IMG/VR virus record: IMGVR_UViG_3300003320_000468 | Coordinates: 3,678 to 67,677 of that record | DNA length: 64,000 bases | Strand: one strand, 5' to 3' | From: a virus | Lineage: Duplodnaviria; Caudoviricetes | Part shown: positions 1,877 to 63,188 of the stretch, in pieces | Layout of the letters: each line of letters starts with the position of its first letter | Position numbering within the stretch: the stretch's first letter is position 1 | The notes under the pieces: model-generated | Database searches by the model: none | Told to the model about the DNA's origin: nothing | Seen by the model: only the letters and a program-made list of their open reading frames with translations | Translations under genes and position numbers: made by a program

Positions 1877-2113
1877 ATGTCTTCCCGGCCAGGGGCACCG
1901 CAGTCCGTCACGGACGAGTACCTGAAGGCGATCCTGGCTGAGCTGCGTGAACTCAACGCGCGGCTCAGCCAGGACACCGTGCAGGAGACCGTCACTGTCG
2001 AGACCGCCGTCGAGTACCTCGTGCGCGAGCACGAGGGCACGATGGTCGATCCCGAGGACCTCACCGGGCAGATCCTGAACCTGCTCCACCCAGGCCGAGG
2101 TGCCGCAACGTGA
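1877..2113 (+). CDS. hypothetical protein (78 aa)
   Basis: ATG 3 nt after capsid stop; stop overlaps next start (GTGA). Confidence 0.55.
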   Translation: MSSRPGAPQSVTDEYLKAILAELRELNARLSQDTVQETVTVETAVEYLVREHEGTMVDPEDLTGQILNLLHPGRGAAT

Positions 2114-2757
2114 TCCCCCAGACGCTCCACCAGATCTGGATCGGGCCCGACCCGCTCCCCGCCGAGTTCGAGGCGTACGCCCAGACGTGGCGGGCGCATC
2201 ATCCCGGCTGGGAGTACCGGCTGTGGGGCGAGGACGCACTCCCGGCGATGCGCAACCGGGACCTGTACGACGCCGCGGAGGACCTCGTCCCCGAGCATTC
2301 GGTGTGGCAGTTCCGGGCCGACGTCCTCCGCTACGAGATCCTCTGGTCCTACGGCGGCGTGTACGTCGACGTCGACTTCGAATGCCTCGCGCCTCTCGAC
2401 CGGCACATCGCGGGCTTGGAGGCGTTCGCGGCGTGGGAGTCCCAGGACCGGTGGGTGAACAACGCGATTCTCGGCGCCGAACCAGGACACCCGTTCCTTG
2501 ACCGGCTGATCACCGGGCTTCCGGCGTCGGTGGCGCATCACCGCGGGCAGCGCCCGAACATCTCGGCGGGGCCCCAGTACCTGACGGGCCTGTGGCGCCG
2601 CCACCGCGACGAGCTCACGGTCCTCGACCAGGCATTGTTCTATCCGTACGGTTTCGCGGACGTCGGCACGCCCCGCGAACACGGCCCGTTCCCAGGCGCC
2701 GTGGCGATTCACCACTGGGCGAACCGGCGCCGCACCATCGCGAGGGGACGGCGATGA
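2110..2757 (+). CDS. glycosyltransferase, GT32/OCH1-like
   Basis: IPQTLHQIW start, ADVLRYEILWSYGGVYVDVD (DxD) and HHW near C-terminus. Confidence 0.85.
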   Translation: MIPQTLHQIWIGPDPLPAEFEAYAQTWRAHHPGWEYRLWGEDALPAMRNRDLYDAAEDLVPEHSVWQFRADVLRYEILWSYGGVYVDVDFECLAPLDRHIAGLEAFAAWESQDRWVNNAILGAEPGHPFLDRLITGLPASVAHHRGQRPNISAGPQYLTGLWRRHRDELTVLDQALFYPYGFADVGTPREHGPFPGAVAIHHWANRRRTIARGRR

Positions 2758-37231: not shown

Positions 37232-37304
37232 TGCGGCTTAGCGCAGTTGGTAGCGCATCCGGCTCATACCCGGGAGGTCGTGGGTTCGATCCCCACCGCC
37301 GCTA
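37232..37304 (+). tRNA. tRNA-Met(CAT), initiator-like but atypical
   Basis: Cloverleaf; anticodon CAT 37265-37267; GTGGG-TTCGATC-CCCAC T arm; U1:U72 and U7:C66 mismatches; CCA not encoded. Confidence 0.85.
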
Positions 37305-37397
37305 CGACACAAGAAAAGAGGGCCGCGATCTCGCGAACTGTTTGCCCAGTTCACGCGCGGCCCTCCGGACAACCAGATCTAGTGGAAGAGGAAGTCC

Positions 37398-60356: not shown

Positions 60357-60641
60357 ATGCTCGACCCCGCCGCCCCCGTCTCCGGCCCCGACGCCGCCGC
60401 CTACCTCACCGATCACACGCCCTCCCGCGTCACCGGCGCGATGATCCGCAAGTGGGCGTCCCGCGGGTACAAGGACATTGACGGGCAGCGGCGCAAGCTC
60501 GAAGCCGTCGACCATGCTGGCCCTCGCGGCGCCGCGAGGTACCGGTGGTCGGACATCGCCGACGCCGAACGCGCCACCCGCCGCAACCCCAAGTCCCCCG
60601 GCCGCGGCCGCCCAAACGTCCGAGAACTGGTCCCCGCATGA
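60357..60641 (+). CDS. MerR-like HTH DNA-binding protein
   Basis: IRKWASRG..ARYRWSDI; GGAGG RBS. Confidence 0.6.
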   Translation: MLDPAAPVSGPDAAAYLTDHTPSRVTGAMIRKWASRGYKDIDGQRRKLEAVDHAGPRGAARYRWSDIADAERATRRNPKSPGRGRPNVRELVPA

Positions 60642-60889
60642 GCAACACCAACGACGTCTACCACGCGAAGGTCAACATCCCCGGTATTCCTGTCTCCGTC
60701 CCGCGGGACAAGCTCATCGAAGCGTTCGAATCGCTCGGGTTCAACACGAACCTCATCAGCTCGCTGGAGATCCACTCCGACGTGCTCTACGTCAAGACCA
60801 CCGCAGTCTCGCCTGACGGACGCGCGGTGATCGAGAACCACGAAACCATCAAGCACACCATCGCGATCCCGATCACCGGGACCGTCTGA
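60638..60889 (+). CDS. hypothetical protein
   Basis: ATGA coupling. Confidence 0.55.
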   Translation: MSNTNDVYHAKVNIPGIPVSVPRDKLIEAFESLGFNTNLISSLEIHSDVLYVKTTAVSPDGRAVIENHETIKHTIAIPITGTV

Positions 60890-60895
60890 CCACAC

Positions 60896-60980
60896 GCCGC
60901 ACTGCCGGAACGGCATACGGACCCGGACCACCGGGTGCCAGCTACGCGCTGGCGTCAGGGTTCAAATCCCTGGTGCGGCA
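60896..60980 (+). ncRNA. class II (tRNA-Leu-like) tRNA with a 4-nt anticodon loop
   Basis: Perfect acceptor (GCCGCAC/GTGCGGC), D, anticodon, variable and T stems; TTCAAAT T loop; A73; loop is only ACCA. Confidence 0.8.
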
Positions 60981-61040
60981 CCTACCCATATCGGCACCGC
61001 CGACACACCAACCCGCCACCAACCGCCCGGGAGGTGCCTC

Positions 61041-61664
61041 ATGCCCCCGTTTGAGGAACCTCCCGGGTCTCCCCGCTGCAAAGCCCGCTCCAACCGCACC
61101 GGCACACAATGCAAACGGCCCCCCATGGCCGGACAGCAGGTGTGCGGCACCCACGGCGGGAAAGCACCCCAGAACCTCGCCGCCGCCCAGCGGCGCATGG
61201 CCGAAGTCCGCGCAGCCAAGTACGTCGAGACATTCGGACTCCCCCGCGAGATCGACCCCAAAGACGCGCTCCTCGAAGAGCTCTACCGGACCGCCGGCGC
61301 CGTCGACTGGCTCCACGCCCAAGTGCAGGAGCTCGAACCCGCACAGGTCACGTGGGGGAAAACCGACGAGGTCACGAAGACCGCGACCGAGTACGAAGGC
61401 GTCGACACCACGTACGCCGCCTCGGTCAACATGTGGGTCCAGTTGTGGCAGGCCGAACGCAAGCACCTTGTGGCCGTCTCCAAGGCCGCGATCGACGCGG
61501 GTATCGAGGAGCGCCGGGTGCGGCTCGCCGAGCAGCAGGGCGTCATCCTCGCCGGGGTCATCAAAGCCGTCCTCGGGGACCTCAACCTCACGCCCGAGCA
61601 GGCGAAAGCCGCGCCACGGATCGTCGCCGACAACCTCCGGAAGGTCTCCCTCTCCGTCAACTAG
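61041..61664 (+). CDS. terminase small subunit
   Basis: CKARSNRTGTQC..CGTHGG; ERKHLVAVSKAAIDAGIEER; directly before TerL. Confidence 0.75.
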   Translation: MPPFEEPPGSPRCKARSNRTGTQCKRPPMAGQQVCGTHGGKAPQNLAAAQRRMAEVRAAKYVETFGLPREIDPKDALLEELYRTAGAVDWLHAQVQELEPAQVTWGKTDEVTKTATEYEGVDTTYAASVNMWVQLWQAERKHLVAVSKAAIDAGIEERRVRLAEQQGVILAGVIKAVLGDLNLTPEQAKAAPRIVADNLRKVSLSVN

Positions 61665-61670
61665 GGGGCG

Positions 61671-63188
61671 GTGGTGGACACCCTCTCCCCGTGGGAAGCC
61701 GCCGCCCGGCACTTCGAGCCACGCGAGGCCCTGTGGCCCACGCCGGGGGCGATGGCCGCCGAGCTGGACCCGACGACGATGCAGACGCCGGCGCTCGACC
61801 TGATCGACGCCGCGCTGGTAGATGTTGCTGAGGGCCGAACGAAGCGTCTCGCGATCTCGCTCCCGCCGCAGGAGGGGAAGAGCCAGCGCGTGTCGCGGCG
61901 GTTCCCGCTGTGGCTGCTGACCCGCGACCCGGATCTGCGGATCGTCATCGCCTCGTACGAGCTGGGTGTGGCCCGACGCTGGGGCCGGGACATCCGCAAC
62001 GACATCGCCACCCACGACGGCCTCCTGGACATCGCGGTGCGGCACGATACGTCCGCGGCGCACGAATGGCAGCTTGAAGGCTACCGGGGTGGATGTTACG
62101 CGTGTGGCATCGGAGGTGCCCTGACTGGGCGGCCCGCCGACCTGCTCGTGATCGATGACCCGCACAAGAACCGCAAGGACGCCGACTCGCTCCTCCAGCG
62201 GAACGCCGTGTGGGACTGGTGGACCGACACCGCCCGCACCCGCCTCTCACCTGAAGCGCCCGTCGTGGTTATCCAGACGCGCTGGCACGAAGACGATTTG
62301 ACCGGCAGGTTGATCGCCGACAACCCCGGCGAGTGGACGGTCCTCAACATCCCCGCGCAGGCGAACCACCGGCCCGAGAAGGGCCAGACTGATCCGCTCG
62401 GCCGCGCCCCCGGGGTCTATCTCGAATCGACGCGTGGGCGTGAGAAGCCCCGCCCCGCCGGGACGTGCAGGCGCCACCCCGACTGGGCGTGCTGCGACTG
62501 GGACGACATCAAAGCCGACGTCCAGGACCGCACGTGGGAAGCCCTCTACCAAGGCGAACCGGCACCGCCCACGGGTTCGGTGTTCAAGTTCGCGTGGTGG
62601 ACGTACTACGAGCAGCCGCAATGGATCGACCACGGCGAGCACTACACCGCGCTGGGGTTCGACGAGGTCATCCAGTCGTGGGACCTCGCGTTCAAGGACT
62701 CCGACGGCTCCGACTTCGTGTGCGGGCAGGTGTGGGGCCGCCGCGGCATCGACGCGTGGCTCCTCGACCAGGTCCACGCACGCATGGACTTCGTGACCAC
62801 CTGCGAAGCGGTCGTTGAGCTGTCGCAGCGGTGGCCGCAGGCGGTCGCGAAGCTCATCGAGGACAAAGCGAACGGCCCGGCCGTGATCAACCAGTTGCGG
62901 CGCACCGTCCCCGGGCTGATCCCCATCGAGCCCGACGGATCGAAGGTCGCGCGCGCCGCCGCGGTCTCCCCGCTCGTGCAGGCCGGGAACATCCACCTCC
63001 CCGCGAAAGCCCTCGCCCCTTGGGTGGACGGGTTCGTGCAGGAGGCGACGTCGTTCCCGACGTCCCCGCACGACGACCGTGTCGACGCCATGTCCCAGGC
63101 CCTCAACCGGCTGCTCATCAACCCGATCCTCCTCGACGACGACGTGTTCGAAGACGAGGACGCGGAGCAGTCCATCAGCCTCTACTAG
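61671..63188 (+). CDS. terminase large subunit
   Basis: PPQEGKS, LLVIDDP, QTRWHEDD, SWDLAF, IEDKANG, HDDRVDA. Confidence 0.95.
   Translation: MVDTLSPWEAAARHFEPREALWPTPGAMAAELDPTTMQTPALDLIDAALVDVAEGRTKRLAISLPPQEGKSQRVSRRFPLWLLTRDPDLRIVIASYELGVARRWGRDIRNDIATHDGLLDIAVRHDTSAAHEWQLEGYRGGCYACGIGGALTGRPADLLVIDDPHKNRKDADSLLQRNAVWDWWTDTARTRLSPEAPVVVIQTRWHEDDLTGRLIADNPGEWTVLNIPAQANHRPEKGQTDPLGRAPGVYLESTRGREKPRPAGTCRRHPDWACCDWDDIKADVQDRTWEALYQGEPAPPTGSVFKFAWWTYYEQPQWIDHGEHYTALGFDEVIQSWDLAFKDSDGSDFVCGQVWGRRGIDAWLLDQVHARMDFVTTCEAVVELSQRWPQAVAKLIEDKANGPAVINQLRRTVPGLIPIEPDGSKVARAAAVSPLVQAGNIHLPAKALAPWVDGFVQEATSFPTSPHDDRVDAMSQALNRLLINPILLDDDVFEDEDAEQSISLY

What the first reader, a model, noticed from the sequence alone, without database searches (positions are those of the whole stretch)
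60896..60983. tRNA-Leu-shaped RNA with all stems intact but only a 4-nt anticodon loop
Seen: GCCGCAC (60896-60902) pairs with GTGCGGC (60973-60979), then A73-C-C. D arm is CCG-GAACGGCATA-CGG; anticodon stem CCCGG/CCGGG closes only ACCA (60927-60930); long variable arm GCCAGC-TACGC-GCTGGC; T arm CAGGG-TTCAAAT-CCCTG. Every stem is Watson-Crick perfect, which argues against random decay, yet no 7-nt anticodon loop can form. Established: the D arm, variable arm and A73 match bacterial tRNA-Leu, and bacterial LeuRS relies mainly on A73 and tertiary shape rather than the anticodon. Inference: an aminoacylatable but non-decoding RNA, possibly a decoy for anticodon nucleases or tRNA-sensing defences, a LeuRS/EF-Tu sponge or a non-ribosomal Leu donor. 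It lies directly upstream of terminase.
Basis: partly seen in the sequence, partly recalled or inferred. Interest (0 to 1): 0.85.

Follow-up and report, generated by a model that had tools for sequence, protein, structure and literature searches.

The report
Phage tRNA-Leu look-alike without anticodon
Just ahead of its DNA-packaging genes this phage carries a gene with the full shape of a leucine tRNA whose codon-reading loop is closed to four bases. Sister phages hold a working leucine tRNA, other reshaped versions or nothing at the same spot, so it is either a recently disabled tRNA or a tRNA-shaped RNA kept for another job.

Summary
ARAGORN calls it tRNA-??? and Rfam's tRNA model does not. 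It descends from tRNA-Leu. In sister actinophages and a Glycomyces prophage the same slot, upstream of the gene before TerL, holds 74-76-nt type-I tRNA-Leu(CAA/CAG).

Simple decay fits poorly. All five stem differences from L087 preserve pairing (chance about 6e-5). The same slot holds two other non-decoding designs: a UACG-tetraloop arm, and an 82-nt form with an 8-nt loop kept in three diverged phages. An unrelated 90-kb phage contig (L118) has the same architecture.

It cannot decode. Charging is untested, and a competing D hairpin makes it doubtful. No decoy or Leu-donor evidence exists.

My reading is a tRNA-shaped RNA retained for its acceptor/T-arm body (0.45), against a young pseudogene (0.35).

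This scan has noted anticodon-less tRNA-shaped phage RNAs on other DNA before.

Read-level checking was unavailable.

The parts
60896..60982 (+). tRNA-Leu-derived, non-decoding tRNA-shaped element: body 60896-60979, discriminator A 60980, CC 60981-60982
   Evidence: Sequence. ARAGORN tRNA-???. Fold z = -5.5. Models R1 and R2 match it.
60896..60902 (+). Acceptor stem 5' strand, pairing with 60973-60979 (7 Watson-Crick pairs)
   Evidence: Pair 6:67 is A-U here but U.U in four tRNA-Leu(CAA) relatives.
60905..60920 (+). D arm (CCG / GAACGGCATA / CGG). Pair 10:25 is C-G here and G-C in relatives. An alternative hairpin at 60903-60915 competes with it.
60922..60935 (+). Hairpin X in the anticodon-arm position: 5 bp plus the 4-nt loop ACCA (60927-60930). 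The flanking A60921 and U60936 can add a sixth pair.
60937..60953 (+). Hairpin Y in the variable-arm position: 6 bp plus the 5-nt loop UACGC. It is absent from the type-I tRNA-Leu relatives.
   Evidence: No other copy in the window.
60956..60972 (+). T arm: 5 bp plus loop TTCAAAT. Pair 50:64 is A-U here and C-G in the CAA relatives.
60991..61003 (+). Small spacer hairpin (TCGGC-ACC-GCCGA) between the element and the next gene. Only L087/L088 share it.
   Evidence: spacer 80% identical to L087.
61029..61036 (+). Shine-Dalgarno GGGAGGTG of the downstream gene, part of a leader motif conserved in all relatives whether or not they carry the tRNA-like element
60638..60889 (+). Upstream 83-aa gene of unknown function, ending 6 nt before the element. 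Homologues precede the element in L066, L073, L075, L104 and L105.
61041..61664 (+). 207-aa gene in the small-terminase position (phrog_3678, function unknown; Cys-rich N terminus)
61671..63188 (+). Large terminase subunit
   Evidence: Pfam Terminase_6N/6C and phrog_38.

Best explanation
The element is the ortholog of the type-I tRNA-Leu(CAA) gene that sister phages carry at the head of their packaging operon. In this lineage the anticodon arm became a closed 5-6-bp hairpin with a 4-nt loop, and a second perfect hairpin was added in the variable-arm position.

Shown: it descends from tRNA-Leu. It cannot present an anticodon. Its acceptor, D and T stems changed only in pair-preserving ways.

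Inferred: it is still transcribed with the late or packaging genes. Its intact 7-bp acceptor stem and T arm let RNase P and the 3'-end and CCA machinery excise it. It is kept as a very stable tRNA-shaped RNA whose role depends on that body rather than on decoding. That role could be setting or protecting the ends of the flanking mRNAs, or acting as a stable tRNA mimic. Charging with leucine is possible but not required by this reading.
For: 1. Orthology. The same slot, directly upstream of the 207-aa gene that precedes TerL, holds tRNA-Leu(CAA) in L043 (Glycomyces prophage, TerL 87% identical), L066, L087/L088 and L104, and tRNA-Leu(CAG) in L074. These score 40-57 bits on RF00005. The window is sister to L087 on the tree of the neighbouring gene (SH-aLRT 95) and shares its spacer.

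2. Structure is maintained. Over 10 slot elements the acceptor and T stems are 96.7% paired, with 4 pairs changed on both sides (0 of 500 shuffles reach the observed score). With the D stem over 7 elements, 96.2% are paired and 5 pairs are changed on both sides. The 5 stem differences between the window and L087 are all pair-preserving. The chance of that from 5 random substitutions is about 6e-5.

3. Non-decoding forms recur in the same slot. L075 has a 5-bp arm capped by a UACG tetraloop. An 82-nt form with an invariant 8-nt loop occurs in L073, L105 (11 contigs) and L090. It is 100% paired over 26 pairs, with 2 compensatory pairs.

4. An unrelated 90-kb phage contig has the same architecture: Leu-type D arm, 4-nt loop and a long extra hairpin (L118).

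5. Precedent in an actinobacterium: Mycobacterium smegmatis YrlA, with a 7-bp acceptor-like stem, is cut by RNase P and receives CCA (PMC4201824).
Against: Only one copy of this exact design is known, so hairpins X and Y have no covariation support. The closest relative has a normal anticodon loop. The slot is dispensable: L070, L071, L072, L086, L089 and L081/L093 lack any tRNA-like element. There are no expression or processing data. The compensatory changes could predate the loss of the loop, or could come from recombination with the 8-nt-loop form, which shares the T stem. Perfect hairpins can also arise without selection, by templated quasi-palindrome correction. The competing D hairpin casts doubt on an L-shaped fold. 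In L090 a small ORF separates the element from the packaging gene, which weakens a strictly cis role.
Confidence: 0.45

Rival explanations
1. It is a young pseudogene. The phage's tRNA-Leu(CAA) was disabled by a rearrangement of its anticodon and variable region. It is a neutral relic that has not yet decayed or been deleted.
For: The nearest relative, L087, has a decodable 7-nt loop. The slot is empty in many relatives, so the gene is dispensable. TTG makes up about 15% of Leu codons in this phage against 8.6% in a Glycomyces chromosomal sample, so the decoder looks useful and its loss looks like a loss of function. The phage mosaic junction sits exactly at the element's 5' end. One replacement or template-switch event could have produced both perfect hairpins.
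Against: All 26 pairs are Watson-Crick, whereas the decoding CAA relatives carry U6.U67 and 31:39 mismatches. All 5 stem differences from L087 preserve pairing (about 6e-5 by chance). The anticodon stem differs from L087 at three pairs, each changed on both sides, which is more than a 3-nt deletion. Other non-decoding designs persist in diverged phages.
Confidence: 0.35
2. One reading: the RNA is leucylated by host LeuRS without decoding. It acts in trans as a decoy for anticodon nucleases or tRNA-sensing defences, as a LeuRS/EF-Tu sponge, or as a non-ribosomal Leu donor.
For: U8, A14, GG in the D loop, TTC in the T loop, A73 and C74-C75 are all present. The anticodon arm is dispensable for charging by Aquifex LeuRS (PMC2377443). 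[quoted passage not shown] The slot turns over quickly, as conflict loci do.
Against: There is no direct evidence. The competing D hairpin sequesters U8 and the G18-G19 equivalents, and the U8-A14 core matters for LeuRS (PMC6614811, PMC2377443). The record holds no tRNA-repair, CCA-adding or Rsr gene. The sister non-decoding designs have non-tRNA D arms (6 bp plus a 7-nt loop), which suggests LeuRS recognition is not the common denominator.
Confidence: 0.1
3. It works at the DNA level: the two perfect palindromes next to the packaging genes are protein-binding or recombination sites (pac/cos-related, attP, or a module-junction linker), and the tRNA likeness is incidental.
For: It lies immediately upstream of the packaging genes, and a mosaic junction sits at its 5' end. 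Hairpins X and Y are perfect inverted repeats.
Against: In the Glycomyces prophage, phage genes are collinear on both sides of the orthologous tRNA, so it is not the attP crossover site. Long-range acceptor pairing and compensatory changes indicate an RNA-level constraint. The palindromes occur nowhere else in the window or in IMG/VR.
Confidence: 0.05
4. It is an assembly or sequencing artefact: a normal tRNA-Leu with a 3-nt loss in the loop.
For: The record is a metagenome-derived IMG/VR contig, and reads could not be examined.
Against: The difference from relatives is not a 3-nt gap. The stem is rebuilt at three pairs and a 17-nt perfect hairpin is added. Random errors do not yield 26 perfect pairs.
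Confidence: 0.03

Closest known systems
Type-I (short variable loop) tRNA-Leu of actinomycetes and their phages, such as Streptomyces coelicolor tRNA-Leu(CAA) (Fan et al. 2019, PMC6614811)
   Same: Same gene lineage. The orthologous slot in sister phages holds 74-76-nt tRNA-Leu(CAA/CAG) with the same acceptor stem and a Leu-type D arm. The same D arm occurs in tRNA clusters of other phages.
   Different: The window element has a 4-nt loop instead of a 7-nt anticodon loop, a 17-nt extra hairpin instead of a 5-6-nt variable loop, and no RF00005 match.
Phage and prokaryotic tRNA pseudogenes and fragments (see PMC9897764 on tRNA gene fragments)
   Same: It is homologous to a functional tRNA gene and carries a lesion that abolishes decoding.
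   Different: There is no truncation and no stem mismatch. All changes relative to the functional relative preserve pairing.
YrlA-type bacterial and phage Y RNAs (Chen et al. 2014, PMC4201824)
   Same: Both are non-decoding RNAs with a tRNA-like body. The actinobacterial example is cut by RNase P and receives CCA.
   Different: The record has no Rsr/TROVE gene, no Ro-binding stem and no Rfam Y-RNA match. The element is a free-standing cloverleaf.
   Same: They are stable, tRNA-associated phage RNAs with tRNA-like ends and unknown function.
   Different: They are larger and lie inside a tRNA cluster. No sequence or structure comparison was possible with these tools.
mascRNA / MALAT1-type tRNA-like processing modules (Rfam RF01684)
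   Same: It is a functional analogy for the proposed role: a tRNA-like fold used as an RNase P/Z cleavage signal that defines the ends of a longer transcript.
   Different: That module is eukaryotic. The Rfam score is only 22 bits against a cut-off of 42.5, so the element is not a member.

Membership tests
Canonical tRNA (Rfam RF00005) | Score at or above the curated gathering threshold (29 bits) | tested here: not met
   There is no RF00005 match at gathering or at E <= 10 in a 501-nt search. The best clan hit is tRNA-Sec at 26.9 bits against a cut-off of 47.
Canonical tRNA (Rfam RF00005) | 7-nt anticodon loop with U33 on a 5-bp stem | tested here: not met
   The loop is ACCA, 4 nt. ARAGORN can name only a 2-nt 'anticodon'.
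Canonical tRNA (Rfam RF00005) | 7-bp acceptor stem and a T arm with a TTCRANY loop | tested here: met
   Pairing probabilities exceed 0.98.
Canonical tRNA (Rfam RF00005) | D arm able to form the U8-A14 and G18G19-T-loop core | tested here: inconclusive
   The residues are present, but a competing 5-bp hairpin dominates the predicted ensemble. Tertiary folding cannot be computed here.
Bacterial tRNA-Leu | Descent from, or orthology with, tRNA-Leu genes | tested here: met
   The same slot holds tRNA-Leu(CAA/CAG) in sister phages. The D loop matches host tRNA-Leu at 8 of 10 positions. Every R1 hit checked with ARAGORN in 151 Actinomycetes genomes was tRNA-Leu (20 of 20).
Bacterial tRNA-Leu | Leu anticodon (NAG or YAA) | tested here: not met
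   No anticodon can be presented.
Bacterial tRNA-Leu | Leucylation by LeuRS | not testable with these tools
   This needs in vitro charging or acid-gel analysis. The literature shows only that the anticodon arm is dispensable in Aquifex (PMC2377443) and that Streptomyces LeuRS accepts both types (PMC6614811).
Type-I tRNA-Leu (short variable loop) | Variable loop of 5-6 nt | tested here: not met
   The window has a 17-nt hairpin plus flanking bases where relatives have 5-6 nt.
tRNA pseudogene | Homology to a functional tRNA plus a disabling lesion | tested here: met
tRNA pseudogene | Signs of relaxed constraint: stem mismatches, truncation | tested here: not met
   All 26 pairs are Watson-Crick, and all stem changes against L087 preserve pairing.
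YrlA / Y RNA | Encoded next to an Rsr (Ro60, TROVE) gene, with a Ro-binding stem | tested here: not met
   The record has no TROVE match and no Rfam Y-RNA hit.
Phage attP overlapping a tRNA gene | The element lies at the prophage-host junction | tested here: not met
   In the Glycomyces genome the orthologous tRNA has homologous phage genes on both sides.

The most novel reading that the evidence does not exclude
Actinophage lineages repeatedly convert a type-I tRNA-Leu gene into hyper-stable, anticodon-less tRNA mimics. At least three designs occur in this one slot, and an independent copy of the window's design occurs in an unrelated 90-kb phage contig. On this reading selection keeps the mimics because they act in trans on host tRNA-handling machinery: LeuRS, tRNA-directed defence nucleases, or RNase P and the CCA enzyme.
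Probability: 0.15. Interest if true: 0.8.

Novelty: new variant of a known kind. Interest (0 to 1): 0.5.

Why it matters
Phage tRNA genes are normally read only as codon-supply or anti-defence spare parts, and odd ones are discarded as 'pseudo'. Here one defined slot at the head of a packaging operon shows a working type-I tRNA-Leu, three differently rebuilt non-decoding versions, and empty states among close relatives, and the tRNA body keeps its pairing throughout. If the non-decoding forms are made and processed, they would be a compact natural system for asking what a tRNA body does for a phage apart from translation. They would also show that annotation pipelines systematically miss this kind of phage RNA.

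Tried and rejected

2. Close relatives in INPHARED: none for the region or for the element alone. None for L118 either.

3. First protein scans of IMG/VR and JGI metagenomes with the single 207-aa protein gave only relatives at 48% identity or less, with no tRNA and no intergenic gap. Close relatives came only through the protein database and contig look-ups.

4. Exact-pattern scans of IMG/VR for the element's 3' half, for its middle and for the 8-nt-loop arm found no further members. A scan with the upstream 83-aa gene family found none.

5. attP hypothesis: rejected by collinearity in the Glycomyces prophage.

6. Repeated or mobile palindrome hypothesis: there are no other copies in the window.

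7. Reading hairpin Y as the real anticodon arm (5 bp plus a 7-nt loop CUACGCG): this costs 4 kcal/mol against the cloverleaf, leaves a 2-nt variable region, and its loop ends pair with each other. Rejected.

8. YrlA/Rsr, CCA-adding enzyme and RtcB partners in the record: none.

9. Promoter and terminator scan around the element: nothing relevant.

10. TTG codon usage against slot state: no visible relation in small samples.

11. Searches of 33 Glycomyces and 151 Actinomycetes genomes with model R1 found no further non-decoding copies.

Full report
OBSERVATION

It has a 7-bp acceptor stem (60896-60902 with 60973-60979), followed by A, C, C. It has a CCG/CGG D stem with a 10-nt loop, and a CCCGG/CCGGG stem closed by ACCA (60927-60930). 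It has a 6-bp hairpin with a 5-nt loop in the variable-arm position, and a canonical T arm. ARAGORN reports it as 'tRNA-??? (cc)'. Rfam's tRNA model does not match. The best clan hit is tRNA-Sec, at 26.9 bits against a cut-off of 47. The fold is far more stable than shuffled sequence (z = -5.5).

There is one caveat. A competing 5-bp hairpin uses U8 and the G18-G19 equivalents. It dominates the predicted ensemble, at -50.9 against -46.0 kcal/mol for the textbook cloverleaf.

CONTEXT

The window is the right-hand 64 kb of a 67.7-kb IMG/VR virus record. The element fills most of a 151-nt gap between an 83-aa gene (60638-60889) and a 207-aa gene in the small-terminase position (phrog_3678). TerL and portal follow. 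The only ordinary tRNA in the record is tRNA-Met(CAT) at 37232-37305. A prophage in Glycomyces sp. NPDC021274 has a TerL that is 87% identical and is collinear with this region. The host is therefore probably a Glycomyces-like actinomycete.

WHAT SITS IN THE SAME SLOT IN RELATIVES

Distant relatives (48% identity or less) have no gap and no tRNA. Close relatives of the 207-aa protein (66-83% identity) were fetched with their flanks. They fall into four states.

A. Decodable type-I tRNA-Leu.
- These are 74-76 nt, with a Leu-type D arm and a 5-6-nt variable loop.
- The anticodon is CAA in L043 (the Glycomyces prophage), L066-68, L087/88 and L104, and CAG in L074.
- They score 40-57 bits on RF00005.

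B. L075. This has the same body, but the anticodon arm is a 5-bp stem capped by a UACG tetraloop. ARAGORN calls it 'tRNA-???'.

D. An 82-nt cloverleaf-like RNA that neither ARAGORN nor Rfam calls.
- It has a 6-bp D arm, an invariant 8-nt loop on a 5-bp stem, a 3-bp arm with a tetraloop, and a normal T arm.
- It occurs in L073, in L105-108 (one protein seen on 11 contigs) and in L090/91.

None. L070, L071, L072 and L089 carry a gene of about 170 aa on the minus strand instead. L086, L081 and L093 also lack the element.

The window's design (C) is unique in this set. On the tree of the neighbouring gene the window is sister to L087 (SH-aLRT 95), and the slot states are scattered across the tree. 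The window and L087 are 80-86% identical downstream and share a spacer hairpin. They are unrelated upstream, so a mosaic junction sits at the element's 5' end.

LEUCINE IDENTITY

The window's D loop matches the Glycomyces tRNA-Leu D loop at 8 of 10 positions, and differs from the Tyr and Ser D loops. A covariance model built from the slot elements (R1) hit only genes that ARAGORN calls tRNA-Leu in 151 Actinomycetes genomes (20 of 20 checked). A model built only from decodable phage type-I tRNA-Leu (R2, without the window) aligns the window's acceptor, D and T arms at 42.6 bits and skips the middle. It is not Leu-specific, however, since the tRNA-Met scores 41.5.

Type-I tRNA-Leu(CAA) is a known actinomycete peculiarity. 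Streptomyces LeuRS charges it, A73 is not an identity element there, and a variable loop of at least 5 nt and U8-A14 are needed (PMC6614811).

SELECTION OR DECAY

- Across the 10 distinct slot elements, the acceptor and T stems are 96.7% paired. Four pairs are changed on both sides.
- With the D stem, over seven elements, 96.2% are paired and five pairs are changed on both sides.
- The window differs from L087 at five stem nucleotides. A6 repairs a U.U mismatch. Pair 10:25 goes from G-C to C-G. Pair 50:64 goes from C-G to A-U.
- Five random substitutions would leave all 15 pairs Watson-Crick with a probability of about 6e-5.
- The anticodon stem differs from L087 at three pairs, each changed on both sides, so the short loop is not a plain 3-nt deletion.
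- Form D keeps 26 of 26 pairs in three phages, with two compensatory pairs. Three sequences are too few for significance.
- A D-arm pattern scan of IMG/VR found ordinary type-I tRNA-Leu in other phages' tRNA clusters. It also found L118:3985-4077, in a 90-kb contig between thyX and a sigma-factor gene. L118 has a Leu D arm, a short stem with a 4-nt loop, a long extra hairpin and the same T loop (z = -3.9). That is an independent copy of the window's architecture.

These points argue against slow neutral decay. They do not exclude a very recent one-step replacement, recombination with form D (which shares the T stem), or templated palindrome 'perfection'.

EXCLUDED

- attP is excluded, because the prophage is collinear across the orthologous tRNA.
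- A repeated palindromic element is excluded.
- A Y-RNA/Rsr system and tRNA-repair partners are absent.
- No promoter or terminator signal of note lies nearby.

MECHANISM (INFERRED)

The intact 7-bp acceptor stem and T arm are what RNase P, 3' processing and the CCA enzyme need. An actinobacterial tRNA-like Y RNA with such a stem is cut by RNase P and receives CCA in vivo (PMC4201824). My preferred reading is a transcribed and excised, very stable, non-decoding tRNA-shaped RNA retained for that body. It would serve as punctuation or protection for the flanking mRNAs, or as a mimic (0.45).

A young pseudogene is nearly as likely (0.35). It has no support here, and the competing D hairpin counts against it (0.10).

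NOVELTY

Non-decoding tRNA-derived phage RNAs are not new in kind. This scan has noted several on other DNA, which I treat as leads only. I found no description in the searched literature of this slot, this design, or the co-occurrence of decoding and non-decoding versions.

Noticed in passing
L073:1391-1472, L105:1090-1171, L090:882-963: An unannotated 82-nt tRNA-like RNA in the same slot. It has a 6-bp D arm, an invariant 8-nt loop (AAAGCGCG) on a 5-bp stem, a 3-bp arm with a tetraloop, and a normal T arm. ARAGORN and Rfam miss it. It is conserved in three diverged phages with compensatory changes.
   Followed up: partly
L075:1395-1470: A sister phage's slot element has a tRNA-Leu body whose anticodon arm is a 5-bp stem capped by a C(UACG)G tetraloop. 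This is a second route to a non-decoding form.
   Followed up: partly
L118:3985-4077: A 90-kb phage contig carries a 93-nt element between thyX and a sigma-factor gene. It has a Leu-type D arm, a 4-nt 'anticodon' loop, a long extra hairpin and a TTCAAAT T loop. The architecture matches the window's but the context is unrelated.
   Followed up: partly
G001 (Glycomyces sp. NPDC021274), C14:113341-113416: Among 50 RF00005 hits in this draft genome, the only tRNA-Leu(CAA) is the prophage-borne type-I one. The chromosome shows Leu GAG, CAG, TAG and TAA only. The prophage may supply the sole dedicated UUG decoder.
   Followed up: partly
window, all high-GC3 ORFs; L047-L054 for the host: TTG makes up about 15% of Leu codons in the phage, and 12-25% in most relatives. 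A small Glycomyces chromosomal sample gives 8.6%. This fits a benefit from carrying tRNA-Leu(CAA).
   Followed up: partly
window 60991-61003; L087 about 1365-1380: A small GC hairpin followed by ACACACCA lies between the element and the next gene. Only the window and L087/L088 share it.
   Followed up: no
L070:1421-1957, L071:1397-1900, L072:1408-1914, L043 about 1900-2230 (minus strand): In relatives that lack the tRNA-like element, the slot holds a family-less gene of about 165-178 aa on the opposite strand, laid out like a moron. L043 has both this gene and the tRNA.
   Followed up: no
window 61004-61040 and the equivalent leaders in L066-L105: A conserved leader (CACACCA, a few bases, then GCTCGGGAGGTG) precedes the 207-aa gene in nearly all relatives, with or without the tRNA-like element.
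   Followed up: no
window 61041-61664: The protein in the small-terminase position has invariant C13, C24, C35 and H38-G39-G40 near its N terminus (zinc-ribbon-like). It matches no Pfam family, only phrog_3678 of unknown function.
   Followed up: no
L116, L117, L119, L120, L076, L079: Other actinophage tRNA clusters carry 74-77-nt type-I tRNA-Leu with several anticodons (CAA, TAG, GAG, TAA). The short-variable-loop tRNA-Leu therefore seems common in phages of this host group.
   Followed up: partly
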